Positions 62 through 19,147 of a DNA stretch of 64,000 bases are shown here, in pieces; position 1 is the first letter of the stretch, and every line of letters starts with the position of its first letter. The notes under the pieces are model-generated. The model was not told the origin of the DNA, did no database searches, and worked only from the letters and a program-made list of their open reading frames with translations. The DNA is from Bacteroidia bacterium (GTDB taxonomy: Bacteria > Bacteroidota > Bacteroidia > J057). Made by a program: the position numbers and the translations under genes. The DNA is taken from contig JANRLQ010000055.1 of the NCBI GenBank assembly GCA_033762375.1, positions 1-64,000 on the forward strand, given 5' to 3'.

Positions 62-1459
62 ATGTTAGGTTTTAGAAGATCGTGTCAACTTTTTTCAGTT
101 TTTTATCTATCAACTTGTCAACCAATTTTAGGAAGTGACCACCGCCTTCTCCTCCTCTCCCTGCTCCTCCTCACAGCGCCGGCCCTGGCCCAGCAGCCTA
201 GTCAAAACTATGCTCTCTTTTTTGCGGTTGATACCTACGACAGCACGAACGCCTATCCGCCGCTGCTGAGCCCTGTGGAGGAGGCTCGCTCCCTGGCGCG
301 GGTGCTGGAGCACGAGTACGGCTTCCAGGCTGAGGTGGTCGAAAATCCTACTGCCAGACAGACCGAGGAGAAGCTGGCGGAATATGCTGCACGATTCGCA
401 GACGGCACCTGCGCGCCGGAGGACCAGTTGCTGGTTGTTTTCAGCGGCCGGGGGCTGGAGCAATACAGCCATGGTTATTTCCTGACACGCGACACCCGGC
501 CCACGGAGGTGCACCGTACGGCTTTATCGTTTTTTCTGGCCAGGGTCCTGATTGACAACATTGCCTGCCAACACATCCTCGTGGCGGTGGACGCGCCTTA
601 CAGCCGCTATTTTGATCCGCAGCCGGGAGCGACGCCGGAAAACCTCCAAAGCTTGGAGGCAGGTGAGCAGATGTTTCAGCAGCACCAGGCGACTCAAAGC
701 CGCTTGTTCCTCACCTCCGGCGACAGCCTCGGGCTTACGCCGGACCAGTCGGGCTTTACGGAGAGGCTGAAGGAAGCTCTGGCGCAGTCTGGCGGTGCAG
801 ATAGCACCCTGACTTTTTCCGAGCTGTGCGGCCTGCTGGGGCAGGGAGGGCCGGACATCCACCGGGGCAGTTTTGGCAAACACGAGGCAGGCGGCAATTT
901 CCTGCTTATCAGAAACATCGCCGCCGCCGACTCCCTTGCCTGGCAACGAGCCCTGCGGGCAGATAACTGTGCAGCCGCTCAAAGTTACCTGACAGATTAT
1001 ACCGCCGGAAAATATCGGGAGGCAGCGGCACAGCAGGTAGAAACGAAGTGCGGGCAGACGGATTCCACACAGGTGGAGGCTAATGCACCGATTGGAAATA
1101 CGTACGACAAGGATATGTTGGTTTACTTCGAACGAGATCCTGATATAGATGCTTTCATGTTTGCGGAATTAAAACCCCAAGCGATAAACTATGATGAGGT
1201 TCGGGCCTTAATGGGCGAACCGGTAAAAGGTATCCTTAAACGAGAAGAACATAAAGGGAAAAATATTCGCGTGGTTGCAAGGGTGCTGGTAGATAAATAT
1301 GGCAACTACAAAAGGCACCGCCTTATTAGTATGGGTCATCCGATTTGTAGCAGACAGGTGGAAGCCTATCTTCACCGGCTGATCTTTACGCCTGCGATAC
1401 AGGGAGGTAAACCCGTCAGCTTTTGGGTCAATATGGCTTTTACCTTTCAGGTAGAGTAG
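62..1459 (+). CDS. Secreted caspase-fold (peptidase C14-like) domain protein with a C-terminal TonB-C-like domain. The catalytic dyad appears substituted.
   Basis: The N-terminal half shows the caspase-domain pattern (YALFFAVDTYD...LLVVFSGRG...YFLTRD...ILVAVDAP). A hydrophobic signal-like stretch (LLLLSLLLLTAPALAQQ) precedes it. The C-terminal ~90 aa (KGKNIRVVARVLVDKYGNYK...GKPVSFWVNMAFTFQV) resembles the TonB C-terminal fold. The true start is uncertain. Confidence 0.5.
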   Translation: MLGFRRSCQLFSVFYLSTCQPILGSDHRLLLLSLLLLTAPALAQQPSQNYALFFAVDTYDSTNAYPPLLSPVEEARSLARVLEHEYGFQAEVVENPTARQTEEKLAEYAARFADGTCAPEDQLLVVFSGRGLEQYSHGYFLTRDTRPTEVHRTALSFFLARVLIDNIACQHILVAVDAPYSRYFDPQPGATPENLQSLEAGEQMFQQHQATQSRLFLTSGDSLGLTPDQSGFTERLKEALAQSGGADSTLTFSELCGLLGQGGPDIHRGSFGKHEAGGNFLLIRNIAAADSLAWQRALRADNCAAAQSYLTDYTAGKYREAAAQQVETKCGQTDSTQVEANAPIGNTYDKDMLVYFERDPDIDAFMFAELKPQAINYDEVRALMGEPVKGILKREEHKGKNIRVVARVLVDKYGNYKRHRLISMGHPICSRQVEAYLHRLIFTPAIQGGKPVSFWVNMAFTFQVE

Positions 1460-1585
1460 TTGGCAGCGCCTCCGGATCATCTACTCAGTAAAAATCTGTC
1501 CTCTCATCAACCCCATACCCCCCCCGCCACCTGGCTTGACTCCCAGCCCCGGTAACTGACCCATCCTGAGGTATCTCCACAACCC

Positions 1586-2515
1586 TCACCACCTTCTTGC
1601 GCCGAGATAGTGGCAACGCACCCGGGAGCGCCACGGGCGGATGCCCATCCGTCCTGACAAGCCCGGAGGTTTGGCGACGTTGTACACCAGCTGATCATCT
1701 ACAAATATCAGCAGCGTATCTTCCAGCACCCGGATCAGGAAATGATGGCATGCGCCCGTAGCAAGGGAAAATGCCACTCCGTCATCTACATGGGTGTAAT
1801 CTGAAAAATCATCCATCCCACGGGCACCGACCTGTTCAAGCAGCATTCGCTCCTCGGAACAAAGCAAATGGTAATAGGTCCGGGAGGCAGAGAATTCCTG
1901 CCAGCCCAGCACCAGGCCAAAACTTGCGGGCAAGTCTTTATCGCCTTCATCGAATCGGAGAAAGCAGATGCGGGCCTCCAGAAGGCAGGACGAGCCGTCG
2001 AATGTTTCCTGGCTGAGGAGAAAGCTGTACAGCCCGCCGCCGGTCAGGGTGCGCGCCTCGGCATCGAGGTCCCAGTCGCCGATGATCTCCAGGTCTTGCC
2101 AGTACGGCTTATAGCTGGAGGTTGTTTTTCGGCCTGCTTTCGGTGGTTTTGACGCCGGGGGCAGGCTTTGGGCTATTTCAGGCGAGAGATAGGGAAGCTG
2201 TCCCCACTTTCTGCCGGAAGACATCTCCACAAACCATCCGTCTTCGAAAAGGATCTGGTCCTGTGCTGCCAGATGATCTATCAGCGTACGGGCCAGGCGG
2301 CCGAATCGGGCTTGTTTGGTGGGTGGACGGGCGATCAGGACTTCAGTGCCGACAGGAATATACCAGCCCTTGAGCTTGGACAGATAGCTGGGCGCAATTC
2401 CGCAAAGGCTGGCTATATAACTTTGTTTTTTTTGTTTGACGGATATCGCGATGTACAATGCAGTCTGGAATATCTCCTCATTTTGATTAAGTGCCAATGG
2501 GAGGGACGCTTCCAT
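1586..2515 (-). CDS. Hypothetical protein with an N-terminal HTH-like segment
   Basis: A long ORF on the minus strand. A helix-turn-helix-like stretch (QTALYIAISVKQKKQSYIASLCGIAPSYLSKLKGW) sits near the N-terminus. No recognisable catalytic motifs. The start is taken at the internal Met (MEAS...). Confidence 0.4.
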   Translation of the reverse strand: MEASLPLALNQNEEIFQTALYIAISVKQKKQSYIASLCGIAPSYLSKLKGWYIPVGTEVLIARPPTKQARFGRLARTLIDHLAAQDQILFEDGWFVEMSSGRKWGQLPYLSPEIAQSLPPASKPPKAGRKTTSSYKPYWQDLEIIGDWDLDAEARTLTGGGLYSFLLSQETFDGSSCLLEARICFLRFDEGDKDLPASFGLVLGWQEFSASRTYYHLLCSEERMLLEQVGARGMDDFSDYTHVDDGVAFSLATGACHHFLIRVLEDTLLIFVDDQLVYNVAKPPGLSGRMGIRPWRSRVRCHYLGARRW

Positions 2516-2708
2516 AGTGGATTCCTGGGTTAAAGTCAAGCATAGATACAAAACGGACAACTATACGGGAAATTATACATATTTCCTGACAAGTTTCCTG
2601 ACAGGGTTTGTCCTGCGGCCAAATAAAAATAGGTGCGTAGTATTGTTGACAACACGGCCGCATGATGCGATGCAGCTATTGGGCCTCGACATACCACAAC
2701 TTTAACTC

Positions 2709-4022
2709 ATGATTAACCCTATTATGCTCACCCTCACCACCGCCGCCAACGCCACCTGGCTCGACACCCTGCCGCGGCAGGAGTGGTACCTCTACTTCGA
2801 GATCCAGGGTGCCGACGCGCCGCCTTCCGAGCAGCGTGTGCCGCTCAACCTCGCCCTCGTCCTCGACCGCAGCGGCTCCATGCAGGGCGATAAAATCGCC
2901 TACGTCCGCCGGGCGGCAGCTTTTGTCGTGGATCACCTCAATGCGGACGATACCCTGGCCCTCGTGCAGTATGACGACGTGATAGACGTGCTAAGCCCCG
3001 CCGCGCCCGTGCGGGACAAGGCCGCGCTCAAGCGTCAGGTCCAGGCCATCGAGGCCCGCAACAGCACCAACCTCAGCGGCGGTATGCTCGAAGGCTTTAG
3101 CCAGGCAATAAGCTGCAAGGAACCCAACCGCGTCAACCGTGTGCTGCTACTCACCGATGGCCTCGCGAATCGGGGCGTAACGGACCCCGGCCAGCTCCGC
3201 AAACTCGCACAGGACAAGTTTCGCCAGGAAGGCATCGGGGTGTCCACCTTCGGCGTGGGCGCCGGCTTCAACGAGGCACTGCTCATGGGTCTGGCTGAGC
3301 ATGGTGGCGGCAACTATTACTTCATCGCCAATCCCGACCAGATCCCCGACATTTTCCAGCGCGAGCTGGCCGGACTGCTCACGGTCGTGGCCCAGCAGGC
3401 GGCGCTGACGATCTCCTTTGCGGATACGGGTCTCCGCTGCGAGAAGGTCTTTGGCTATCCGGGGGAAATCTCTGACGGAGTGGTCCGGGTGAATTTTAAT
3501 GATGTATTTGCCAGCGAGAAAAAAGCGGTGCTGCTCAAGCTGGTCGCCGACGCTCCTCTTGCGGCGGAAAGCCTGTCTTTCCACGCAGAACTGAAGTATG
3601 TGGATGCCCTGGCGGGATTTGAAGCGATGGCTGAGCGCAAAACGCTAGAAATGCGCCGCACCACCGATCAGCTGGCCTATGACCAGGGGCTTGATCCCAA
3701 ACTTGCTGAACAAATCGCACTCTTCCTGGTCGTGGACTGGCGGGAACAGGCGCAGGCTTATGCCGACCGCCGGGACTTTCAGGCGGCAAATGCACTTGTC
3801 CAGCAAGCCAAAGCCTACCTCGAAGGGTATTTCAGCAGCCACGCGCCAAGCGAGGACCTGAATAACCTCTATCAGGAACTGCTTACCTACGAAAAAGTGC
3901 TGGCGGCAATGCCGCAGATGGATGAGGAAATGTATCGCTCACACAGCAAGGGATCCAATTATTATGCCTACATGCGGCGCTCGAAGCGGAGGCTCGACTA
4001 CGAGGAAAACAGCAACCCCTGA
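2709..4022 (+). CDS. von Willebrand factor type A (vWA) domain protein
   Basis: A MIDAS motif (LVLDRSGSMQG) is followed by the canonical vWA pattern (TLALVQYDD...TNLSGGM...VLLLTDGLAN...GVSTFGVGAGFNEALL). Confidence 0.8.
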   Translation: MINPIMLTLTTAANATWLDTLPRQEWYLYFEIQGADAPPSEQRVPLNLALVLDRSGSMQGDKIAYVRRAAAFVVDHLNADDTLALVQYDDVIDVLSPAAPVRDKAALKRQVQAIEARNSTNLSGGMLEGFSQAISCKEPNRVNRVLLLTDGLANRGVTDPGQLRKLAQDKFRQEGIGVSTFGVGAGFNEALLMGLAEHGGGNYYFIANPDQIPDIFQRELAGLLTVVAQQAALTISFADTGLRCEKVFGYPGEISDGVVRVNFNDVFASEKKAVLLKLVADAPLAAESLSFHAELKYVDALAGFEAMAERKTLEMRRTTDQLAYDQGLDPKLAEQIALFLVVDWREQAQAYADRRDFQAANALVQQAKAYLEGYFSSHAPSEDLNNLYQELLTYEKVLAAMPQMDEEMYRSHSKGSNYYAYMRRSKRRLDYEENSNP

Positions 4023-4082
4023 CAGGCGGCAGCCTGAAAGTATAGCGGGTGGCCGCAAAAAAACGGGCCATCTCCCGCGCCC

Positions 4083-7000
4083 TCAGGCCTTGTGCTCCCG
4101 GAGGCTTGCTGCGCGGCGCTCCTGGATGTAGTGCCCCCAGTAGGCAAGTTTTTCCCGCAGCTCCCCGATCTGGAAGGGTTTGCTCACGAAGTCACGCATG
4201 CCTGCCTCGTAGCAGGCATGAATATCTTCTTTCATCACCCCTGCTGTAACGGCCAGCACCACTGGGCGCTGCGCAGCGGGGAGTTCCTGGAATAGGATCC
4301 GTGTGGCCTCCAGTCCGTCCATGACGGGCATGTGAACATCCATAAGCAGCAGGTCGTAGGGTCGCTGGCGCAGCGCGTCAAGGGCCTCGGCGCCATTGCT
4401 GGCCAGGTCAGGGGTGTAGCCTTCTTTCTCCAGCACACGTCGGATAAGCTTCTGGTTGACGGGATTGTCTTCTGCTGCCAGGATGCGGAGCGGATACCGC
4501 TGTGCCAGTTTTTCGGCCAGCGTATCGGGCGGGATGGCCGGGACATCATCCGGGTGGACGGCGAGGAGCCTGGCGGCCTTTGTGCGCAGCTTGCTGATAA
4601 CCAATGGGGCTGCATGCAGCTCATCCTGGGCACCTGCTTTTGAGGGGTGGCTGAAAATACTGTCGCGGGGCTGGAGCAGCAGCGCCGGAACTGGCTGCCG
4701 GGCTTGTTTTTCCAGCCAGCACGTAAAGTCCTGGGCAGCCAGGGCGCCAGCGTCGAGCAGGACGAGGTCGGCGGCAGTGGCGAGGCAGAGTGCTTCCGCT
4801 TGGTGGCAGATATAGGTTTCGCAGCCCCAGGCTGTGAGCTGGCCGCTCAGCCATTCGGCGCGGGGGGCACGGGCGTCGAGCAGCCAGACCCGTTTGCCTG
4901 GCCAGGCGGGCGGTGACACTGGCACAGCAGGAGCTGCTTCGACCCGGATATGGAACGTAAATGTACTGCCCTTGCCCGCTTCGCTGTCAAGTGAGATGCC
5001 TCCGCCCATCAGATGCGAAAGGTGGCGGCAGATCGAGAGTCCGAGGCCGGTGCCTCCATACCGCCGGGTGGTCGAGGCATCTGCCTGCGTAAAAGCCGCG
5101 AAGAGCCGTGAGGCCTGCTCGGGCGAAACCCCGATCCCGCTGTCCTGCACAGACAGGTACACTTCCCCTGCTCCCTGTGCAGGCCAGGGCTCCCGCAAGA
5201 AGACCCGGATATGCACATATCCCTGGACCGTAAACTTCAGGGCATTGGAAACCAGGTTGGTCAGAATCTGCTGTACCCGCACCGGGTCGCCCACCATCTG
5301 CGCAGGCAACTCAGGAGCAAGGTCATACAAAAGGTCCAGGTCCTTCTGATACGCTGCCGGGCCAAAAATCTGAACGACATTCTCCACCACTTCCCGCAGG
5401 TCGAAGGGTACTGACTCGATGAGCAGTTTGCCCGACTCAATTTTTGAGAAATCGAGGATGTCGTTGATGATCGCCATCAGGGCCTTGCTGCTGCTGCGGA
5501 TGGTGTCGAGATAGTCGTGCTGCTCGGCATCAAGGGAGGTATCGCCCAGCAAGTCCAGCATCCCGATGACACCGTTCATGGGGGTTCGGATTTCGTGGCT
5601 CATATTGGCCAGGAATAAACTTTTGGCCTCAGAGGCTTCGCGGGCTTCTTCACTTTTGCGGAGCAGCTCCTCCGTGCGTTGCGCGACGAGTTTTTCCAGC
5701 AGGACATTCTGTCGCTTCAGCCGGTAGGACTGTAACCAGATCCCGAAGGCGAACATCGCGATCAGGAGCACACCGTAGACAACAAAAGCACCTGGGGAGA
5801 GATACCAGACCGGATGTACCTCGATATCCCGTGTTACAGGCTCACTCCATCCATACGAATCACCTTGTTTGACCCGTACTTCCAGGGTGTATTTACCGGC
5901 GTCGAGCGGCGGGGTTTCCCACTCCTGCGCCTCCTGGGGCTGTGACCAAGCGTCAGACAACCCCCTGATGCGCGTCTGATAGAGTACGGGTTCTCCTGAG
6001 TAGGCATAGTGGACAACGCGGGAGCGGACGCGGCTTCGGTAGGGATAGACAGTGGCATGGTCCTGATCTGCCCAGCGGGGCCGCTGGCTGCTTGGTGGCA
6101 CGGGATCCGGGCGGCTGGACACAACCAGACCCTCGCGGGTGCCGATCCAGATATAACCCTCGCTGTCGCGGGAGATGGTGGCATATTCTGTCTCATCGGT
6201 CGGCAGACCGGAGGCAACGCCAAACTGTACGAAATCGTTGTGGCGGTAGCAGCCGATACCCTTACTTTTGCTGCTCAGCCAGAGGCTGCCTTCGCGGCCG
6301 GCACACACCGCCCGGATCTCCTCGTTGACAGGCCAGTTGCCTACTTGTATGCGGAGCACGCTTTTGCGGTCGTAGCGGAGCAGGCCATCGGTGGTGGCCA
6401 TCCAGACAGTGTCGCCCCCCCCTAGCTCTAACATATGCACCTCAAAGACAGACGCAGGTATGAAGGACAAGGGCAGGCTCAGGTTCTCAAAGCGCTCTTT
6501 TTCCGGATCATAGCGATACAGGTAAGTTTTCTCACCCACGCCACTGAGCAGCAGGCTGCCGTCAGGGTGCTGCCGGACATCAATGATCCGCGTGTCCAGT
6601 CCTTCTGCCTTGCCAAAATGACGGATGGAGCGGCTGCGTGGGTCCAGGCGCATCACCCCGACCAGGGGGGTGCTGTCAGGGGCCTGGCAAAGCCATATAT
6701 AGCCGGCATGATCCCGCACAGACTGGAAAATCGTACTTCCCTGGCTGCGAAAATCCAGCACGGTGCGCTCCTTGCTGCCGGGACGGGTGCGTAACAGGCG
6801 CCCGTCGTAGTCTCCGATCCAGAGCCAGCCCTCTTGGTCTGCCATCAGGCTGGTGGCACCGCGCCAGGCCCCTATATTGAGGGCTTCTGTCCGGTACTGC
6901 CGGTCCTGGCGGGTAATGCGGTATACATCGCCAGCGGTCGCATAACGCACGCCGGGCTGGGTTTCGTAGTTGGCCCAGAAAGAAACCTCAGGCAAGCCGG

Positions 7001-7964
7001 GTGGGCTGACAAAAAAGGCCGGGGTCAGCAAGTGCGCCCCGTCGGCTGCCGCTACCCAGATCGCCTGACCATCGCTTGCTGGTGCAAAATCGAGTACCTG
7101 CGTTATGCCGAGGGAGTCTATATGTTTTTGCCCCGTCTGGCTGAAGACAGGAAAAGAGCGGAGCGAAGCACCTGATGGCAGCCATTCATAGACGGGATAC
7201 AGGCTGCCCGCAGCGAGCAAGGGGCCACCCGGCGTGCGAAATGCCCTGCTCAGGGGTTCAGGGCTCTGCAAGGTCAGGACCCGCACCTGAAAGGCCAGAT
7301 TTGCCTGGCCAGAAATTTCGCAGGTGCTTTCCGGCCCCCAGGCCAGCCAGCGACTGGAGCCCAGGGCAAGTATGTGGGTATTTCCGCCGGGCAGGGTGAC
7401 AGGCAACAGAAAAAAGGTCTGCGTATCTTCTTGCCAAAGGTACAGATTGCCTGCGGCATCCGCCGCGAGCAGGTGTCCGGCATCGTCGAAGGCCAGTTGT
7501 ACCTCAGCGGTGCCCAGGGGAAATACCCTGAGCTGCCCCTGCCGCCAACGGGCTGCATACCCCGGACCACCCACCCAAAAGGTACCGTCACGGGTGGCGA
7601 TCTGGCTGCCTGTCTGCGGCGGCTGGGGCAGCGGAAAGAGCTCTGCTGCCTCGGTGAGCGCCAGGTCAGGATGCCGCGCCGGAAAAACTGCTATACCACC
7701 GGGGCAGAGAGCGACCATTTTTCCTGCCCCGTATGCCAGATCAAACAGCGGCCCTGGTAAAAACGTCGGCGGCAACTCATGGTATTGCTGGCTGTCGAAG
7801 TAGGCAAGGCCCTTTGCGGTCCCCAGCCACAAGAGACCCGTAGGATCCTGTGCCAGTGCTGTAATCTGCTCCCCTCCTGTCAGGCCCGGAAAACGGGAAA
7901 TACGGTATTGGGTACGCTGGGCAGTCAGCCCTGATACCGTCAGCATGAGAATCGTCCAGGCCAT
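4083..7964 (-). CDS. Hybrid sensor histidine kinase/response regulator with a periplasmic Y_Y_Y/beta-propeller sensor region
   Basis: The protein has a signal peptide ([16 protein letters not shown]). A long N-terminal repeat-rich region has beta-propeller character, followed by a TM segment. The HisKA H-box ([19 protein letters not shown]), an HATPase_c G-box ([13 protein letters not shown]) and a C-terminal receiver ([15 protein letters not shown]...[16 protein letters not shown]) are all present. No AraC/HTH output domain is seen. Confidence 0.85.
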
Positions 7965-8151
7965 GAACGCCCGCCAGCCGCACAATTGCCGGTCCCTGCA
8001 TCCAGGGCCTGTCAACAAAGCATATCGGCCGCAGAAAAAAATCATGTTCTGAGGGGGGTAAGTACTTGCAATATACGTTTTGCCATACACAGATGCCAGT
8101 GTTTCTGGTGGCAGATTATTACAAGATACGTATATTTATCGTCCACTGACG

Positions 8152-8436: not shown

Positions 8437-9012
8437 TCACCCCCACACCACGCCTCGGTACAGATCCCGCATGGCGATTTCAGCGCCCATACTGGGGAGG
8501 CTGATGGTCGTTTCCAGTCCTTCATAGGCCCGGAACTGCCACAGGCCGCTCTCGTCGCGGGAAAACACTTCTACTAAGGGCTGCTTTTGCGAGATAAGCA
8601 CGTAGTCGCGCAGGGAAGACAGGGTACGGTAGAGCCGGAACTTTTCGCCCCGGTCATAGGCTTCGGTGCTGTCGGAGAGCACCTCAGCGATCAGCACGGG
8701 GTTTACGAGGGCGTTGGGGTCGAGGGGCGAATAGTGCTCCGGACCGCAGACCAGCGAGGCTTCGGGATAGAGGAAGCAGTCCTCCGCCTCGATGCGGATG
8801 CGCAGATCGCCGTTGAAGGAAGTGCAACCGCTGCGGCGGGCCAGGAGATTGAACTCTGTTACTATGTTGCCTCCCAGCATGCTGTGGTTACGTGTGCCGC
8901 CTGCCATCGCAAACAGCTCGCCCCGGTGGTACTCATGCCGGACATCGGCGCTGCGCTCCAGCTCCAGGTAATCGGCCACGTTCAGGCGGAGGCTTATGGC
9001 TGCTTCTCCCAT
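8437..9012 (-). CDS. Uma2 family (DUF820) putative restriction-endonuclease-like protein
   Basis: The ~190-aa protein fits the Uma2 pattern (ADYLELE...RHEYHRGELFAMAGGTRNHSMLGGNIVTEFNLL...PVLIAEVLSDSTEAYDRGEKFRLY). The start is taken at the internal Met (MGEAAISL). Confidence 0.7.
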   Translation of the reverse strand: MGEAAISLRLNVADYLELERSADVRHEYHRGELFAMAGGTRNHSMLGGNIVTEFNLLARRSGCTSFNGDLRIRIEAEDCFLYPEASLVCGPEHYSPLDPNALVNPVLIAEVLSDSTEAYDRGEKFRLYRTLSSLRDYVLISQKQPLVEVFSRDESGLWQFRAYEGLETTISLPSMGAEIAMRDLYRGVVWG

Positions 9013-9070
9013 AGGATGATTCTTTGAGGAAATATACGGGTTTTTGGGAAAAAAGTAGCAGGATGCTCGC

Positions 9071-10513
9071 TTACACCTGCCTAAATAGCGCATCCAGCGT
9101 GAGCTGGCTGTCAACCAGCCCCAGGCTGTGGGCATTATGGCGCAGGCCAAAGGGGGTAATGAGGGTGAGCCATACTTGCTTGCGGGTGCCTGTAGCTTCC
9201 TTGAAGGCAGCTACCCGGTTGCGGAGCCGGAGGGCTTCCTCTTTTGTGAGGCTGAATTCCCCGGCGTAAAACTTGAGCTCGAATACATGAATCACATGGT
9301 CGCTTCGCTCCAGCAGCAAATCCACCTGAAGTCCTGGTTGAGAATCAGTTCCGCGCTGAATATAAGATCCTGCCTGGGTCAGCACGCCCGAAATGCCCAG
9401 CGCCTGTTTGATGGAGGGGAGGTGCTTCAGGCACATGTTTTCAAAGGCATAACCTGACCAGCTTACAAAACCTTGTTCTTTAGCGAGTTGCTGCCACTGC
9501 TCCACCCCACGCTCCAGATACGGCTCCATAAATTGCAGGTAAAACAGAGAAAACTCATCCGTGAGGCGATAAAGTCTGTCTTTTTTCTTCTTTTCAAAAG
9601 GGGCTATGCGGGAAATAAAGTCAGAATGCAGTAGTTCTTCGAGCACCGTGCTCAGGCTTCCGCCATCTGAAAGTCCCGTTGTGTGGGCTATTTCAGTGTA
9701 TGTCAACCCCTTTTTCCGGGTTGCCAGGGCCTTTACAATGGCGAGATGTGTTTTGGGTGACTCAAATAGCGCTGCAAAAAGCTTGGGAAACTCATCGCGC
9801 AAGAGTCCGTTGGGAGAAAAACAAATAGCCTCGATGTTTTGGGCAGCGCTGCGGCCGCCGGTCACTTCGTTGAGGTAGAGCGGCACCCCGCCCAAAACCA
9901 TATACAAGTGTGCAAGCTGGTAACGGTCAAACTGAATGTGGCGGGATTCGAAAAAAGCCTCCGTTTCAGCCAGCGTAAAGGGCTGCAAATGAATACGGCG
10001 TGTGATACGGTTGTGCAATCCCCCTTTGTGATTCACCACATGTTTGATCATCCAGGATGCGGCTGAGCCGCAGATCACTACCACGACGGGCTGGTTGACT
10101 GCCCAACTGTTCCAAAACCAGCTTAGTCCCTTCAAAAAGCCTGATCCATGCGTGGCCAGCCAGGGCAATTCATCCAGAAACACGACCCATTTGCCTTCTT
10201 TGGGTTTGTTTTCCAGGGCCTGCGATAATTGAAAGAAGGCATCAAGCCAATCACGAGGCTCAGGCCCTAAGGCAGAAAACCCACCCAGTCGAGCCATCTG
10301 AAAAGAAAAATTCCGGAGTTGCTCGCTTCGGCTGGCGTGTTGAATACCCGTAATTTCGAAATCGAGTTGTTGCTGGAAAAAGGATTTGACGAGAAAGGTT
10401 TTCCCAACCCTCCGCCGACCAACTATAGCTACCAGCTCTGCGCCAGGCGATCGAAGCGTTTGATGGAGGACTTGCTGCTCTGCCGTGCGACCAACGAGTG
10501 GGTAAGGAGTCAT
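9071..10513 (-). CDS. ATP-binding protein of the archaeal-ATPase/DUF234 family (AAA-like)
   Basis: Walker A (VGRRRVGKTFLV) and Walker B-like (VVFLDELPWL) motifs are present. The C-terminal DUF234-like region carries a winged-helix segment (LAIVKALATRKKGLTYTEIAHTTGLS). Confidence 0.8.
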   Translation of the reverse strand: MTPYPLVGRTAEQQVLHQTLRSPGAELVAIVGRRRVGKTFLVKSFFQQQLDFEITGIQHASRSEQLRNFSFQMARLGGFSALGPEPRDWLDAFFQLSQALENKPKEGKWVVFLDELPWLATHGSGFLKGLSWFWNSWAVNQPVVVVICGSAASWMIKHVVNHKGGLHNRITRRIHLQPFTLAETEAFFESRHIQFDRYQLAHLYMVLGGVPLYLNEVTGGRSAAQNIEAICFSPNGLLRDEFPKLFAALFESPKTHLAIVKALATRKKGLTYTEIAHTTGLSDGGSLSTVLEELLHSDFISRIAPFEKKKKDRLYRLTDEFSLFYLQFMEPYLERGVEQWQQLAKEQGFVSWSGYAFENMCLKHLPSIKQALGISGVLTQAGSYIQRGTDSQPGLQVDLLLERSDHVIHVFELKFYAGEFSLTKEEALRLRNRVAAFKEATGTRKQVWLTLITPFGLRHNAHSLGLVDSQLTLDALFRQV

Positions 10514-10552
10514 GCTAAATGGAGCTATGCGCAGGAACTCTCAAAGAAAGTA

Positions 10553-10736
10553 AGATTCCGCGAGTATTCCTAATAAACCTTGGCGGAATCTTACTTTTAA
10601 AACCACATTCCGCTAAAATTTTATGTGAACCTTAGCGGAATCTCATTTTTTTACCCACATTCCGCGAGCATTCCAAGTGATCACGCGCGGAATCTTGTCT
10701 TTTGCCCATATTCCGCTGGCATCCGCTGCGAGAAAG
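10553..10736. repeat. Three tandem ~52-bp direct repeats plus a partial fourth copy, in the divergent promoter region between the ATPase and the Crp/Fnr gene. Each unit contains an inverted repeat GCGGAATCT-N~21-ATTCCGC.
   Basis: The units sit at 10581-10632, 10633-10684 and 10685-10736. A partial unit carrying attccgcgag lies at 10553-10562. The sequence is read directly. Confidence 0.6.
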
Positions 10737-10774
10737 CTTGATTTTTCATACTTTGACAGCTACAACTCCCTCCC

Positions 10775-11371
10775 ATGACCCTCTCCGACCAACTCCTCCA
10801 GCTCAAAAAAGCCATTCAGCAGATTGTGCCGATTCCCGACGATGAACTCGATGCGGTGAAGGACGATTTTGTGCCGCAGGAGATAGCCAAAGGAGAGCTG
10901 CTGCTGGAGGAAGGGCGCGTCTGCGGGCATTTGGCTTTTGTGAATCAGGGTTTGTTTAAAACCTACCTCCTCCAGGATGGCAAGGAGCATATCCGGCAGT
11001 TTATCGCAGAAAGTGGGTTTGCGATCGAGCTGGGGAGTTTTCTCACCGGCGCACCTTCTGCTTTTTCCATAGAGGCCCTGGAAGATTCGCTGATTCTCAA
11101 AATCGAAGCCCGGCGGCTGAATGCCATTTTTGAAAGTTCCCTGCTTTACATGCAACTCGGCAAAATACTGGCCGAATCTGCTGCCGTCAACCTCACCCGG
11201 CGTAGCGTGTCGCTCATCAAAGACAACGCCACCACCCGTTACCTTGATTTTATCCGCGAAAGGCCCCATCTCCTCCAACGTGTACCGCAGTTTATGATCG
11301 CCTCCTACCTCGGCATCAGCCCCGAAGCCCTCAGCCGCATCCGCAAAGAACTGGCCGCCGGTGCTTCTTGA
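10775..11371 (+). CDS. Crp/Fnr family transcriptional regulator
   Basis: An N-terminal cNMP-binding beta-barrel pattern is followed by a C-terminal HTH (TRYLDFIRERPHLLQRVPQFMIASYLGISPEALSRIRKEL). Confidence 0.85.
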   Translation: MTLSDQLLQLKKAIQQIVPIPDDELDAVKDDFVPQEIAKGELLLEEGRVCGHLAFVNQGLFKTYLLQDGKEHIRQFIAESGFAIELGSFLTGAPSAFSIEALEDSLILKIEARRLNAIFESSLLYMQLGKILAESAAVNLTRRSVSLIKDNATTRYLDFIRERPHLLQRVPQFMIASYLGISPEALSRIRKELAAGAS

Positions 11372-11439
11372 TCTACATCAATGTTCCACCGCCCGTGCGC
11401 CCGCAACTTTGCCTTTGTAATCATTCATCATTACCTCTT

Positions 11440-12306
11440 ATGGCAAAGAAAATAGCTGTCATCGGTGCCACGGGCAGGCTCGCGCCGGTCGTGATTCGTG
11501 AACTGGCAAAAACGCATACGGTTACCGCCATCGTGCGCAATCCGGAGAAAGCAAAGGGGCTTTTGCCGCCAAATGTATCGGTAAAAATAGCTGATTTGCA
11601 GGATATTAACAGCCTGAAGGCAGCCATTCAGGGCGTAGATATGCTCTACCTCAACCTCTCCGCAGAAGCGCCGGGGGCTACCTTCCAGCCAGAACTCGAC
11701 GGGGTCCGAAATGTGCTCAAAGCGGCGGAAGGCAGTACCGTGCAACGCATCCTGAAACTATCGGGCCTGGGCGCGTACCGCCCGGATTTTGCACCGGGAA
11801 AAACGCTCTTCGCCAACGAAATCCGCCGCCAGGGCCAGGAACTGATCCGAAGCAGCGGCATTCCCTATACCTTTTTTCATGCCACCTGGTTTATGGAAAG
11901 CCTGGAGCTCATGCTGAGGCAGGGCGATACCCTCAATGGATTTAAACCGCTGCCATACCCGTTTTACTGGATTGCAGGTGCCGACTATGCCCGTATAGTG
12001 GCCCGCGCCGTGGAGCTTGACCTTCCAGGCAACCGCGACTATATCATACAAGGCCCTGAGCCTGTCCTGATGGCTGATGCCCTGAAACGTTACGCCAGGT
12101 CATTTTCACCTGTTCTCAAGGTCCGCGAAACCCCCATCGGTATGCTGAAATTCATTGGATGGTTTGTTCCTGCATTAAAACAGGTAGCTGCGATGGGTGA
12201 ATATTTTCAAGGATTTCAGGAGCAGTTGGCTGCTGGAGAGACCTGGAAAGAGCTGGGAGCACCGACGCAGCGGATCGAAGAGTTTGCACGGGAGATACAG
12301 CGATGA
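11440..12306 (+). CDS. NmrA-like / NAD(P)H-binding (SDR superfamily) protein
   Basis: A Rossmann GxxGxxG motif is present at the N-terminus (MAKKIAVIGATGRLAPVVIRELAK). The start is at the internal ATG at 11440. Pairing with an adjacent Crp/Fnr regulator is common. Confidence 0.75.
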   Translation: MAKKIAVIGATGRLAPVVIRELAKTHTVTAIVRNPEKAKGLLPPNVSVKIADLQDINSLKAAIQGVDMLYLNLSAEAPGATFQPELDGVRNVLKAAEGSTVQRILKLSGLGAYRPDFAPGKTLFANEIRRQGQELIRSSGIPYTFFHATWFMESLELMLRQGDTLNGFKPLPYPFYWIAGADYARIVARAVELDLPGNRDYIIQGPEPVLMADALKRYARSFSPVLKVRETPIGMLKFIGWFVPALKQVAAMGEYFQGFQEQLAAGETWKELGAPTQRIEEFAREIQR

Positions 12307-14445: not shown

Positions 14446-15525
14446 TCAGGGCATCAGGCACTCCCGCCGGATCAGGTCCACCTCTGCCTGCAGGTACGGG
14501 GTGCCATCCTGCCGGAATATGTCGTGAAACCACAAGGCCGGCTCCGATCCGTCCTGATGGGTGGTATCCGACCAGGCATAGATGGTATTGGTTTTGCCGC
14601 TGACCAGGCCCCAGTTGATGGCGCTGACCTGTTCCCGCTTCAGGATCGGGAGAATGGTTTCGAAGGTACTGCCATTTTTCCGGGCCATATACTCCGAGCA
14701 GAGGAGGGGACGCTCATAGGCCCGGAGGGAGTCTATCGTTGCCTGCATGGAGGCCGGGTCTGTATAGTTGTGAAAGGTAATGATGTCAGACTCCGCAAGC
14801 TGGCGGACATTGAGATCCCGGAGGCTGGCGTTCCAGACGCCAGAGGTGACCGGCTGGGTGGCAGGGGTGCTGCGGGCCCAGGTAAATACTGCCTGGAGGA
14901 GGGGCATCGAGGCATTGCCTTTGCCGGAGTTACCGGGTTCATTATAGAGATCCCAGAGGACGATGCGCTCATCCGTGGCAAAATGGGTCATCACATCCCG
15001 TACGTACCGGGCCAGGATCGGGAAGTACGTAGTATCAGCACTTTCCCGCTGGCCGGGATCCTGGACCCAGCCTGAGTTGTGGATGCCCGGTTTGGGGGCT
15101 GGCTGGAGGCCGGGGGTACTGGTCCCATTCCAGCAGTCATCCATAAACACAAACATCGTGCGGATGCCATATCCATCTGCGAGGGTCAGGTATTGTTCCA
15201 TCCGCGCTTTAAACCCGGTACTATCCTGTTGCCAGGCTTTGTGGTGGAGGTACACCCGCATGAGGTTAAACCCAAGTCCGGCGGCATAACCCAGTTCCCG
15301 GCGGATCGTGGCCGTGTCAAACGTCTCCGCCTGCCACATTTCGAGTTGGTTGATGGCCGTGCTGGGGATAAAATTAGCCCCCCGCATCCAGCCATGCTGG
15401 TTTGCCCAGGTCTGTGCCTGCGCTGGCGTCCAGCGGGTACGGGCTGTGGGAGCAGTTGGCGGGGTAGGGGAGGAGCAGGCTGCGACCAGCAGCAGGACGG
15501 GCAACCAAACAGATACAATACGCAT
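14446..15525 (-). CDS. Lipoprotein glycoside hydrolase, clan GH-A (GH5-like)
   Basis: A lipobox signal (LLLVAACSS) is present. A TIM-barrel glycosidase pattern with the NEP acid/base motif (WDLYNEPGNSG) is seen, plus FNLMRVYLHH and FVFMDDCWNG segments. Confidence 0.65.
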   Translation of the reverse strand: MRIVSVWLPVLLLVAACSSPTPPTAPTARTRWTPAQAQTWANQHGWMRGANFIPSTAINQLEMWQAETFDTATIRRELGYAAGLGFNLMRVYLHHKAWQQDSTGFKARMEQYLTLADGYGIRTMFVFMDDCWNGTSTPGLQPAPKPGIHNSGWVQDPGQRESADTTYFPILARYVRDVMTHFATDERIVLWDLYNEPGNSGKGNASMPLLQAVFTWARSTPATQPVTSGVWNASLRDLNVRQLAESDIITFHNYTDPASMQATIDSLRAYERPLLCSEYMARKNGSTFETILPILKREQVSAINWGLVSGKTNTIYAWSDTTHQDGSEPALWFHDIFRQDGTPYLQAEVDLIRRECLMP

Positions 15526-18242: not shown

Positions 18243-19147
18243 ATGAAAATCTTTATCTACTCAAGTAACACAAAAACCAGCTATCTGCAAATACAGACAT
18301 GAATATCACAGGGTTGAGGTGGCAGGGAGAAGTGGGCGGTCGTGGGGTGAGGCAGATCTTATTCCAAACTGAGCAAACCGCGGCGTACTCCTGCATGGAA
18401 GGCGGCCGGCAACACCATTTATTCTCCCTATTACTGGTGTACCTGATCGAAGCCACAGGACCTGTCCTGAGCCCTTCGAAGGGCCCCCTCAGCAAACCTG
18501 TTCAGGTACTTTTCACCGCAGGCGTACATATCAACAAAAAAGTTGTATATATTTATGGCGCATCTGGCACCAAACTCCACTAGCCTTGTCCTGAGCGCAG
18601 TCGAAGGGTCGAATACGCTGCCACCAACACCGCAGTGAAAACGACTGTGACTTCAGCCATCCAGACTCCTGTGAATGATTCTTATTTTACGATCAGGGGT
18701 GTGGGAAAGAGTGAAATACCTCGGTTTCTTTAGACCACCTGGTAGAGTTTGTTAATGTGAGCCAAGCGGCTAATCGGTATCGTTCAGCGGGTTGAGGTAT
18801 GTCAGTATCCTGGCGGGCCCGGTGGTGTACCGGTTTCTGCCCCGCCCCATCCTGCAAAAAAACGAGTCATCCCGGGCCGGATTGAGACAGAGGTACGGTA
18901 TGGTATCGGCTTACCCTGATGGGTTTCTCGTGCCGGGTTGACAGACCAGCTGTCTTAGGAACACGCTCAGCATACATGCCAGATATTGCGAAGGGATTTT
19001 GTGCGAAGACAAGGAAGGCAACCCGAGTCAGCGCGGACTCAATCACTCCAGAAGGGGGATTAAGGGGCCCCCTTCTGGAGTCCTCTGACGCATCATCTGA
19101 ACAAAAGCCCGAGTCAGCGCGGAATGTATGTTGAGCGTTTTACTTAG

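What the first reader, a model, noticed from the sequence alone, without database searches (positions are those of the whole stretch)
10553..10736. Tandem array of three 52-bp units, each an imperfect palindrome GCGGAATCT-N21-ATTCCGC, in a divergent promoter
The period is 52 bp, about 5 helical turns, so the half-sites lie on one face of the DNA. The array sits between the divergently transcribed archaeal-type ATPase gene (start 10513) and the Crp/Fnr regulator gene (start 10775). The half-site GCGGAAT is not the classical Crp/Fnr TTGAT-N4-ATCAA. This may be an operator array for a different dimeric regulator, or a phased binding platform. A GCGCGGAAT motif also recurs at 19113-19121 near the tRNA.
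Basis: seen in the sequence. Interest (0 to 1): 0.6.

Follow-up and report, generated by a model that had tools for sequence, protein, structure and literature searches.

The report
Binding-site array of neighbouring ATPase-nuclease gene
The repeat is real, but it belongs to the neighbouring ATPase-nuclease gene (a candidate anti-phage gene), not to the Crp regulator: it is an array of palindromic sites that this protein family carries in front of its own genes, and one amino acid in the protein's winged-helix domain changes together with the DNA half-site.

Summary
The array is real but was partly mis-measured. Seven exact GCGGAAT/ATTCCGC half-sites alternate in orientation over 10555-10716. 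The unit is GCGGAAT-N16/17-ATTCCGC, the period is 52, and N21 is the gap between units. An eighth, decayed unit (10531-10561) ends 17 nt before the ATPase start.

The array does not belong to the Crp gene, because Crp orthologues lack it. In the closest relative (ATPase 86% identical) the homologous block is exactly array + ATPase + Uma2, next to a different gene. Half-site columns are 53/56 identical there, against 75/135 for the other array columns.

The ATPase is PADLOC candidate PDC-S27. Its model shows an AAA+ domain, a winged helix and a PD-(D/E)xK nuclease.

- A genome scan found the unit in at least 120 stretches (about 17 expected by chance), mostly Bacteroidota. About 55% lie within about 320 nt of an ATPase homologue, most within 130 nt.
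- In 75 homologue loci chosen by protein alone, 73% carry an analogous palindrome upstream, against about 1.4% in controls. The half-sites differ between lineages.
- Protein residue 283, just before the recognition helix, tracks the half-site: D with GCGG, S with GCCA, E with G-A, N with GCT. These switches recur in separate lineages.

Best reading: these are the ATPase's own binding sites, overlapping its promoter, so the gene regulates itself. Neither binding nor regulation has been tested. I found no published description.

The parts
10531..10561 (-). Gene-proximal, partly decayed unit: an intact left half-site GCGGAAT (10561-10555), a spacer carrying TTTCTTTG (10549-10542, resembling the Bacteroidota -7 box TAnnTTTG), and a degenerate right arm TTCCTGC (10537-10531). 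It ends 17 nt before the ATPase ATG.
   Evidence: Found with 3 mismatches and read directly. It aligns with the intact proximal unit of L208. Four other arrays (L033, L055, L073, L015) end the same way, with a half-site followed by a -7 box.
10583..10613 (-). Unit 1: GCGGAAT-N17-ATTCCGC. Read towards the ATPase gene it is GCGGAATGTGG...AGATTCCGC.
   Evidence: Orthologous to a unit of L208.
10635..10665 (-). Unit 2: GCGGAAT-N17-ATTCCGC.
10687..10716 (-). Unit 3, the most distal: GCGGAAT-N16-ATTCCGC. The block shared with the closest relative ends just beyond it, at 10725.
10547..10597 (.). A perfect 15-nt inverted repeat, AAAGTAAGATTCCGC-N21-GCGGAATCTTACTTT, linking the proximal half-site to unit 1.
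   Evidence: I2
9071..10513 (-). The 480-aa ATPase-nuclease gene (PADLOC candidate PDC-S27). It has Walker A GRRRVGKT and Walker B DELPW, a winged helix at about residues 253-317, and a PD-(D/E)xK motif (D398, E412, K414).
9563..9757 (-). The region encoding the predicted winged helix (residues about 253-317; recognition helix 285-296). The D283 codon lies at 9665-9667.
   Evidence: AF2 model, pLDDT 84. Translation check. Covariation of column 283 with the half-site.
8437..9012 (-). A Uma2-family (putative endonuclease) gene of 191 aa. It travels with the array and the ATPase in the closest relative only.

Best explanation
The array is the set of cognate DNA sites for the protein encoded immediately to its left. 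That protein is a PDC-S27-type AAA+ ATPase with an internal winged-helix domain and a C-terminal PD-(D/E)xK nuclease domain.

**Shown by comparison of sequences:**
- Each unit is two inverted 7-9-nt half-sites (here NN-GCGGAAT) separated by a 16-18-nt A/T-rich spacer.
- Units repeat every 52-53 bp.
- The last unit overlaps the gene's own promoter.
- A protein residue next to the recognition helix changes together with the half-site.

**Inferred:**
- Two protomers sit head-to-head on one unit, each winged helix reading one half-site.
- The 5-turn phasing lets dimers on neighbouring units cooperate.
- Occupancy of the proximal unit, which brackets the -7-like box, sets transcription of the ATPase(-Uma2) genes. 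Repression is the most likely direction.

The Crp gene is only the present neighbour of this module.
For: My own estimate of the chance expectation is about 17. Nearly all hits are in Bacteroidota. Of 130 occurrences, 71 lie within about 320 nt of a homologue of this ATPase, most within 130 nt.
2. **Association found by protein alone.** In 75 homologue loci taken from metagenomes, 73% have an oriented palindrome of the same architecture within 260 nt upstream. Shuffled sequence gives 1.4% and coding windows 1.3%. With a looser definition the figures are 94% of 128 upstream regions against 7%.
3. **The half-site differs between lineages** (GCGGAAT, GCGAAAT, GCCAAA[T/A], GCTAAA, TCCAAAT, GAAGAAAT and others), while arm length, spacer (17-18) and period (51-54) stay the same.
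4. **Specificity code.** Of 472 protein columns, column 283 has the highest mutual information with half-site positions 5-6 (MI/entropy 0.78 against 0.38 for the next column). It lies 2 residues before the predicted recognition helix.
   - D goes with GG in 38 of 39 cases.
   - S goes with CA in 18 of 19.
   - E goes with GA in 4 of 4.
   - N goes mostly with T-containing half-sites (TA, TT, CT).
   - The result holds in the protein-chosen subset alone (0 of 5000 permutations reach it).
   - The same pairings recur in separate clades of a neighbour-joining tree.
   - Columns with a similar number of changes reach an MI of at most 0.84, against 1.42.
5. **Fold.** The model (pLDDT 84, pTM 0.82) has an AAA+ domain, a lid and a winged helix, then a nuclease domain. 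Its nearest solved folds are 2qen, ORC/Cdc6 and STAND NTPases.
6. **Closest relative** (ATPase 86% identical). It has four units of period 52. The homologous block is exactly array + ATPase + Uma2. Half-site columns are 53/56 identical against 75/135 for the other array columns.
7. **Promoter geometry in the GCGGAAT lineage.** A perfect TAnnTTTG box sits either inside the spacer of the proximal unit (12 loci; in the cases read, the ATG follows within about 2-17 nt) or about 18-21 nt downstream of it (16 loci, mainly Bacteroidales).
Against: - No binding or expression data exist. The direction of regulation is unknown, and in Bacteroidales the unit sits upstream of the -33 region, which would also suit an activator.
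- About 45% of the exact-motif hits have no PDC-S27 homologue within the 8-kb locus. Some of these lie beside other ATPase families or unrelated genes.
- 16% of the protein-chosen loci also carry a unit just after the stop codon, and 9 of those 12 share the upstream unit's core. Simple autoregulation does not require this.
- Sequence outside the conserved half-sites is also complementary (6.7 of 10 positions against 2.5 expected). Protein read-out alone does not explain this.
- Half-site centres are about 24-26 bp apart, roughly 2.4 turns. That is an unusual geometry for a simple dimer.
- In the window itself the proximal right arm is decayed and the -7-like box is imperfect (TTTCTTTG).
- The covariation rests on related sequences and on my own rule-based extraction of half-sites.
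Confidence: 0.68

Rival explanations
1. The palindromes act as hairpins in RNA or single-stranded DNA. They would be a 5'-leader element, a bidirectional terminator or insulator, or a small RNA. The half-site conservation would then reflect a stem, not protein read-out of duplex DNA.
For: - Every unit can fold. The flanks outside the core are complementary but variable in sequence (6.7 of 10 positions).
- In Bacteroidales the whole palindrome is often bracketed by an A-run and a T-run.
- One terminator-like hairpin is called within the window's array.
- Cognate units occur 4-50 nt after the stop codon in 16% of loci.
- There is a slight excess of G-T over A-C mismatches on the sense strand, 199 against 155.
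Against: - No Rfam family matches, even at E up to 10.
- The 7-nt core is conserved in sequence across a phylum while the ATPase falls to 36% identity. A stem maintained only for pairing would drift.
- The core changes together with one winged-helix residue.
- Units work in either orientation relative to the gene.
- In many loci the -7 box lies inside the proximal unit, so that hairpin would not be transcribed intact from this promoter.
- The G-T/A-C asymmetry is weak and can be explained by base composition.
Confidence: 0.1
2. The sites are ends or recombination sites of a small selfish cassette (array + ATPase-nuclease, with or without passenger genes). The protein would bind them to move, copy or maintain the cassette, and control of transcription would be secondary or absent.
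For: - The block shared with the closest relative begins exactly at the distal unit and ends at the Uma2 stop. It sits in a rearranged neighbourhood: the GH5 cellulase gene is on the other side.
- In some Bacteroidales loci (L024, L046, L097) the gene is bracketed by two units in direct orientation. In L024 these share about 100 nt of flanking sequence.
- Solitary units without a gene exist.
- The protein carries a nuclease domain, and its ATPase profile weakly matches TnsC.
Against: - Most loci have units on the upstream side only.
- I did not look for target-site duplications or empty sites.
- The position of the units relative to the -7 box is fixed. That fits promoter control and is not needed for mobility.
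- No recombinase or transposase lies in the shared block.
Confidence: 0.1
3. It is an operator array for the adjacent Crp/Fnr regulator, or for another unlinked transcription factor that controls the divergent gene pair.
For: The array lies between the two divergent genes. Its distal unit ends 59 nt before the crp ATG.
Against: - Crp orthologues at 60-66% identity lack any comparable upstream region.
- The array is not adjacent to crp in the closest relative.
- The motif's partner across genomes is the ATPase.
- The half-site covaries with an ATPase residue.
Confidence: 0.03
4. It is a replication-origin-like module: an ORC/Cdc6-like initiator next to its repeated recognition boxes, belonging to an integrated element.
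For: - Foldseek places the AAA+ and winged-helix part among ORC/Cdc6 structures.
- Repeated inverted boxes with A/T-rich spacers lie beside the initiator-like gene.
Against: - The family is very large: 7416 clusters at E<=1e-40 among the candidates scored. It also occurs in several copies per locus (L065).
- It carries a nuclease domain.
- No helicase or other replication genes lie in the shared block.
- The boxes are positioned relative to promoter elements.
- I did not test GC skew or look for an unwinding element.
Confidence: 0.03

Closest known systems
Archaeal Orc1/Cdc6 and their origin recognition boxes (ORB)
   Same: An AAA+ protein with a C-terminal-side winged helix whose gene lies next to several inverted copies of its own recognition sequence. 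The fold similarity was found here. The ORB arrangement is from general knowledge.
   Different: - There is no evidence of replication function.
- The protein has an added PD-(D/E)xK nuclease domain.
- The family is multi-copy.
- The sites are positioned on the gene's promoter.
- The half-site differs between lineages.
Autoregulated defence operons with wHTH repressors (BrxR/CapW-type WYL-wHTH proteins binding inverted repeats upstream of defence genes)
   Same: A palindromic operator in front of a (candidate) defence gene, read by a winged helix. This comparison is from general knowledge and was not tested here.
   Different: - The DNA-reading domain is part of the ATPase-nuclease effector itself, not a separate repressor.
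- The sites come as phased arrays of 1-4 units with an unusually long 17-nt spacer.
DnaA boxes in the dnaA promoter, and plasmid Rep proteins with iterons or inverted repeats
   Same: An ATPase or initiator that binds repeated sites beside or over its own promoter and so regulates itself. Arrays of phased sites are typical.
   Different: The protein family is different. The sites are inverted pairs rather than direct iterons. No origin function is indicated.
PADLOC candidate PDC-S27 (ATPase + PD-(D/E)XK; Payne et al., as cited in PMC12988326)
   Same: The window's protein matches the PDC-S27 model end to end (E 5e-185).
   Different: PDC-S27 is defined by protein only and has not been validated. 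The papers I could search mention no cis-element, DNA sequence specificity or winged-helix read-out.
REP/BIME palindromic units and MITEs
   Same: Short imperfect palindromes in intergenic DNA, sometimes in tandem with alternating orientation.
   Different: These units are not dispersed in the window. They are tied to one gene family and change in step with that protein.

Membership tests
Crp/Fnr operator | Inverted 5-bp arms with a 4-6-bp spacer (TGTGA-N6-TCACA or TTGAT-N4-ATCAA) | tested here: not met
   The arms are 7-9 nt with a 16-17-nt spacer (21 nt between units).
Crp/Fnr operator | The site is kept upstream of orthologous regulator genes | tested here: not met
   Orthologues P0002, P0004 and P0005 have 10-50-nt or overlapping upstream junctions and no array. 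The closest relative's array is not next to crp.
PDC-S27 (adjacent gene) | Full-length match to the PADLOC model | tested here: met
   PDLC04984: E 5.1e-185, residues 6-477 matched to model positions 4-473 of 474.
PDC-S27 (adjacent gene) | P-loop ATPase plus PD-(D/E)xK nuclease motifs | tested here: met
   These residues are invariant in alignments A2 and A3: G32-R-R-R-x-G-K-T39, D114-E115, D398, E412 and K414. The architecture is stated in PMC12988326.
PDC-S27 (adjacent gene) | Protection against phage | not testable with these tools
   The source paper says most PDCs have not been validated experimentally.
Cognate (auto)operator of a DNA-binding protein | The sites lie in the promoter region of the protein's own gene across the family | tested here: met
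   73% of the protein-chosen loci against 1.4% and 1.3% in the two controls. Fixed offsets to the TAnnTTTG box.
Cognate (auto)operator of a DNA-binding protein | The protein has a DNA-binding domain | tested here: met
   Predicted winged helix at residues 253-317. ORC/Cdc6- and 2qen-like fold. This is a prediction only.
Cognate (auto)operator of a DNA-binding protein | Site sequence and DNA-reading residues change together | tested here: met
   Column 283 against half-site positions 5-6.
Cognate (auto)operator of a DNA-binding protein | Physical binding and an effect on transcription | not testable with these tools
   Needs EMSA, footprinting, ChIP and reporter assays.
Rfam RNA families / intrinsic terminator | Match to a curated covariance model, or a G+C-rich short-loop hairpin followed by a T-run | tested here: not met
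   No family at the gathering score. Only spurious miRNA hits at E 0.7-7. One weak terminator-like call inside the array, with a 14-pair stem containing 4 G-C pairs.
CRISPR array | Near-identical direct repeats with unique spacers of similar length | tested here: not met
   Copies are only 63-71% identical to the reference copy. The unit is itself a palindrome and the linkers are 21 nt. TRF makes no call. I did not search for cas genes.
REP/BIME or MITE | Many dispersed copies that are independent of any one neighbouring gene | tested here: not met
   No other copy in the 64-kb window, even allowing 3 mismatches. Across genomes the partner is one gene family. The rest of the source genome could not be read.
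Orc1/Cdc6-ORB replication origin | An unwinding element and replication initiation at the site | not tested
   Only fold similarity was seen. The gene family is multi-copy and carries a nuclease domain.

The most novel reading that the evidence does not exclude
PDC-S27 proteins are sequence-specific ATPase-nucleases whose recognition palindrome is written next to their own gene. The array would then be more than an operator. It could be a docking or licensing platform that holds the nuclease inactive on self DNA, or the functional end of a self-propagating cassette (array + gene + passengers such as Uma2). The one-residue code (D/S/E/N at position 283) would then define many mutually exclusive specificities within one defence or selfish-element family.
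Probability: 0.15. Interest if true: 0.85.

Novelty: new variant of a known kind. Interest (0 to 1): 0.64.

Why it matters
PDC-S27 and its relative PDC-S01 are among the most common candidate defence genes in bacteria and archaea. One survey counted thousands of instances (PMC12988326), yet nothing is known about how they work.

This analysis suggests three things about the family:
- The proteins read a specific palindrome with an internal winged helix.
- That palindrome sits as a phased array on the gene's own promoter.
- A single residue tracks the half-site.

That gives direct, inexpensive experiments: EMSA, residue swaps and reporter fusions. It also gives an annotation rule for a recurrent intergenic element in Bacteroidota. 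For this window specifically, it reassigns the repeat from the Crp gene to the ATPase gene.

Tried and rejected
- **Tandem Repeats Finder:** does not report the array.
- **Rfam:** at the gathering score it finds only the tRNA; at E up to 10 on 10450-10800 it gives only spurious miRNA hits.
- **NCBIfam:** no family for the ATPase.
- **Source contig:** a look-up by the exact Crp protein returned only a 1.3-kb contig identical to the window, which was uninformative.
- **Crp orthologue contexts:** no array, so the Crp-operator idea was rejected.
- **Exact GCGGAA..TTCCGC upstream of protein-chosen homologues:** only 6 of 80, which at first looked like a refutation. Reading the upstream sequences showed the same architecture with other half-sites.
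- **Sigma-70 promoter scan:** not informative, because Bacteroidota use a different promoter type.
- **G-T versus A-C mismatch asymmetry as a test for RNA:** weak and inconclusive.
- **Uma2 as a general partner:** found only in the closest relative.
- **Viral contigs:** only 2 motif hits, neither next to an ATPase homologue.
- **Neighbours of solitary motifs:** no dominant family. There are small clusters of a 378-aa ATPase_2 protein (Segatella) and of proteins that look like the AAA_14/DUF4143 type.
- **Literature searches** (sequence strings, PDC-S27, PDC-S01, DUF234, DUF4143, PF01637): no description of the element. One search failed on syntax.
- **Formal pair-covariation count on the arms:** not run, because the units were selected for being complementary and the count would be circular.

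Full report
**1. The observation**

The intergenic region 10514-10774 contains seven exact GCGGAAT/ATTCCGC half-sites in strictly alternating orientation. They lie at 10555-, 10583+, 10607-, 10635+, 10659-, 10687+ and 10710-. The window holds 14 exact matches in all, and shuffles give 9.2, so seven within 162 bp is far beyond chance.

The repeat finder gives three 52-nt copies at spacing 52/52, with 63-71% identity to the reference copy. Tandem Repeats Finder misses them.

The palindrome proper is GCGGAAT-N17/17/16-ATTCCGC.

The half-sites fall into two flavours. One reads GCGGAATCT. The other reads GCGGAAT(G/A)TGG when read outward. A unit is therefore GCGGAATCT-N11/12-CAYATTCCGC.

The leftmost half-site forms a perfect 15-nt inverted repeat with unit 1. 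It also heads a fourth, decayed unit on the minus strand, GCGGAATCTTACTTTCTTTGAGAGTTCCTGC at 10561->10531. That unit ends 17 nt before the ATPase ATG at 10513.

The 'recurrence' near the tRNA is a single half-site at 19119 and is consistent with chance.

**2. The neighbouring genes**

- Left, minus strand: a 480-aa protein with Pfam ATPase_2/AAA_14, followed by a Uma2-family gene.
- Right, plus strand: a 198-aa Crp/Fnr-type protein, followed by an NmrA-like gene.
- The source is a Bacteroidia MAG.

**3. The array is not the Crp gene's element**

The nearest Crp homologues (60-66% identity) keep the crp-nmrA pair. They are preceded by 10-50 nt, or by an overlapping gene, and have no array.

**4. 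The motif across genomes**

By my own estimate about 17 would be expected by chance. Nearly all hits are from Bacteroidota, including Bacteroidales, Chitinophagales and Saprospiraceae.

Of 130 occurrences, 71 lie within about 320 nt of a homologue of the window's ATPase, most within 130 nt. They lie mostly upstream, in either orientation.

Outside the conserved core the flanks differ between loci but are complementary: 6.7 of 10 positions against 2.5 expected. Several loci carry tandem arrays like the window's.

**5. The ATPase**

It matches PADLOC candidate PDC-S27 end to end (E 5e-185). NCBIfam has no model for it.

The literature describes PDC-S27 only as an abundant, unvalidated single-gene defence candidate with an ATPase fused to a PD-(D/E)XK domain (PMC12988326).

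Alignments show an invariant Walker A (GRRRxGKT), a Walker B (DE), and D398/E412/K414.

An AlphaFold2 model (pLDDT 84, pTM 0.82) shows three parts:
- an AAA+ domain with lid (residues 1-250);
- a canonical winged helix at about 253-317 (helices 253-265, 272-279 and 285-296, then two strands);
- a C-terminal alpha/beta nuclease-type domain.

Its closest solved folds are the P. abyssi Walker-type ATPase 2qen, ORC/Cdc6 proteins and STAND NTPases.

**6. A test that does not depend on the motif**

I fetched 80 metagenome loci by protein similarity alone. Only 6 carry GCGGAA..TTCCGC.

Reading the upstream sequences showed that almost all carry the same architecture with a different half-site. Examples are GCGAAAT, GCCAAAT/A, GCTAAA, TCCAAAT, GAAGAAAT and TGCGCAA.

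With an explicit rule (9-nt arms with at most 1 mismatch, inner ends AA/TT, spacer 15-19), 73% of 75 upstream regions have a unit. Shuffles give 1.4% and coding windows 1.3%.

With 7-nt perfect arms the figures are 94% of 128 regions against 7%.

- Spacers between the 9-nt arms are 17-18 nt.
- Unit-to-unit spacing is 51-54 nt.
- Inverted-repeat centres alternate every 26-27 nt.

**7. Who reads the sites**

I aligned 80 non-redundant proteins that have an assigned half-site and computed mutual information between every protein column and half-site positions 5-6.

Column 283 is the clear maximum (MI 1.42, 78% of its entropy; the next-best ratio is 0.38). It lies two residues before the predicted recognition helix.

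The table reads like a recognition code:
- D with GCGGAAT: 38 of 39.
- S with GCCAAA or TCCAAA: 18 of 19.
- E with G-A (GCGAAAT, GAAGAAAT, GGAGAAAT): 4 of 4.
- N mostly with T-containing half-sites (GCTAAA, GCTTAA, GGCTAA).

On a neighbour-joining tree the pairings recur in separate clades. For example, S/CA, E/GA and N/TT members sit inside the D/GG clade. Among 80 columns with a similar number of changes, the best MI is 0.84.

The result holds in the protein-chosen subset alone: MI 1.79, ratio 0.81, and 0 of 5000 permutations reach it. The window's protein has D283 (codon 9665-9667) and GCGGAAT sites.

This is the main reason to conclude that the ATPase's own winged helix reads the half-sites in duplex DNA.

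**8. The closest relative**

A genome with an 86%-identical ATPase (GCA_041741415.1; L208) has four units of period 52 upstream. The last ends 17 nt before the ATG.

The homologous block is window 10725..8439, that is array + ATPase + Uma2 at 77% nucleotide identity. The upstream neighbour there is an unrelated 148-aa ORF. A GH5 cellulase gene that is nearby in both genomes lies on the opposite side.

Within the array, half-site columns are 53/56 identical and the rest 75/135. Selection therefore acts on the half-sites, and the module moves as a unit.

**9. Relation to the promoter**

In the GCGGAAT lineage, 37 of 49 proximal units have a perfect Bacteroidota -7 box (TAnnTTTG) at one of a few fixed offsets:
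- inside the spacer, starting 21-22 nt before the unit's end (12 loci; in the cases read, the ATG follows within about 2-17 nt);
- about 18-21 nt downstream of the unit (16 loci, mainly Bacteroidales);
- 30-31 nt downstream of the last full unit (5 loci). In four of these the array ends with a lone half-site followed by the box, as in the window (GCGGAAT-cttac-TTTCTTTG).

A protein pair bound on both arms would bracket the -7 element, so autorepression is the most natural reading. The Bacteroidales geometry would also allow activation. The identification of TAnnTTTG as the -7 box comes from general knowledge of Bacteroidota promoters. No transcription starts were mapped.

**10. What does not fit simple autoregulation**

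- About 45% of exact-motif hits have no PDC-S27 gene within 8 kb. A few sit beside other ATPase families, such as a 378-aa ATPase_2 protein in Segatella and proteins of the AAA_14/DUF4143 type.
- 16% of protein-chosen loci have a unit 4-50 nt after the stop codon, and 9 of those 12 share the upstream unit's core. In some Bacteroidales loci the gene is bracketed by direct copies that share about 100 nt.
- The flanks outside the core are palindromic. This might reflect cruciform or hairpin function, a terminator role, or correction of quasi-palindromes by template switching (my speculation).
- Half-site centres lie about 2.4 turns apart, which implies a large or DNA-bending assembly.

These points keep the hairpin and cassette-end readings alive at low probability.

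**11. Novelty**

No Rfam family matches. No paper in the searchable library describes a cis-element or DNA specificity for PDC-S27, ATPase_2 or DUF234 proteins.

The general kind is familiar: a DNA-binding ATPase with phased cognate sites on its own promoter, as with DnaA, Rep-iteron systems and Orc1-ORB. The element family, its link to an abundant candidate defence gene and the one-residue code appear to be undescribed.

All conclusions are computational. Binding, the direction of regulation and any role of the nuclease domain at these sites remain to be tested.

Noticed in passing
window 8437-9012 (-) and L208 6503-7078: A Uma2-family (putative PD-(D/E)xK endonuclease) gene follows the ATPase 58-60 nt downstream, both in the window and in the closest relative. 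It lies inside the shared 2.3-kb block. No other ATPase locus examined had a Uma2 homologue.
   Followed up: partly
window 10775-12306 (+); L002-L007: The Crp/Fnr-type gene and the NmrA-like NAD(P)-binding gene form a conserved pair in distant relatives (60-66% identity), separated by a 70-180-nt gap. The regulator's real operator is more likely to lie in that gap (window 11372-11439) than in the array.
   Followed up: no
ATPase protein columns 175 and 296 (window about 9989-9991 and 9626-9628, minus strand): After column 283, columns 175 (AAA+ domain) and 296 (end of the recognition helix) have the next-highest mutual information with the half-site. They might be further DNA contacts or simply phylogenetic signal.
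   Followed up: no
L027, L068, L085, L099 (Segatella/Prevotella): The same GCGGAAT palindrome, with long complementary flanks and A/T runs, sits 23-24 nt after the stop codon of a different 378-aa P-loop ATPase. That protein has a winged-helix-like C-terminus and resembles the ATPase_2 type by eye. No PDC-S27 gene lies in these loci.
   Followed up: partly
L024 4225-4255 and 5773-5803; L046 94-124 and 1616-1646; L097 3570-3600 and 5090-5120: In these Bacteroidales loci the ATPase gene is bracketed by two units in direct orientation. In L024 the two copies share about 100 nt including the outer stems. This could reflect duplication and deletion, DNA looping, or cassette ends.
   Followed up: partly
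window 14446-15525 (-) and L208 7991-8932: A GH5 cellulase gene (80% nucleotide identity) lies near the ATPase module in both genomes, but on opposite sides of it. The module or its surroundings have therefore been rearranged locally.
   Followed up: no
window 62-8090: The neighbourhood to the left holds a caspase-domain protein, a VWA-domain protein and a 1335-aa hybrid sensor kinase with Reg_prop repeats. It is not an obvious defence island.
   Followed up: no
L038 (contig labelled Parachlamydiales) 4908-4938: This is one of very few GCGGAAT-type arrays with an adjacent ATPase on a contig labelled outside Bacteroidota. It is also the one GCGG case where residue 283 is S rather than D. It could be a binning error, a transfer, or a genuine exception to the code.
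   Followed up: no
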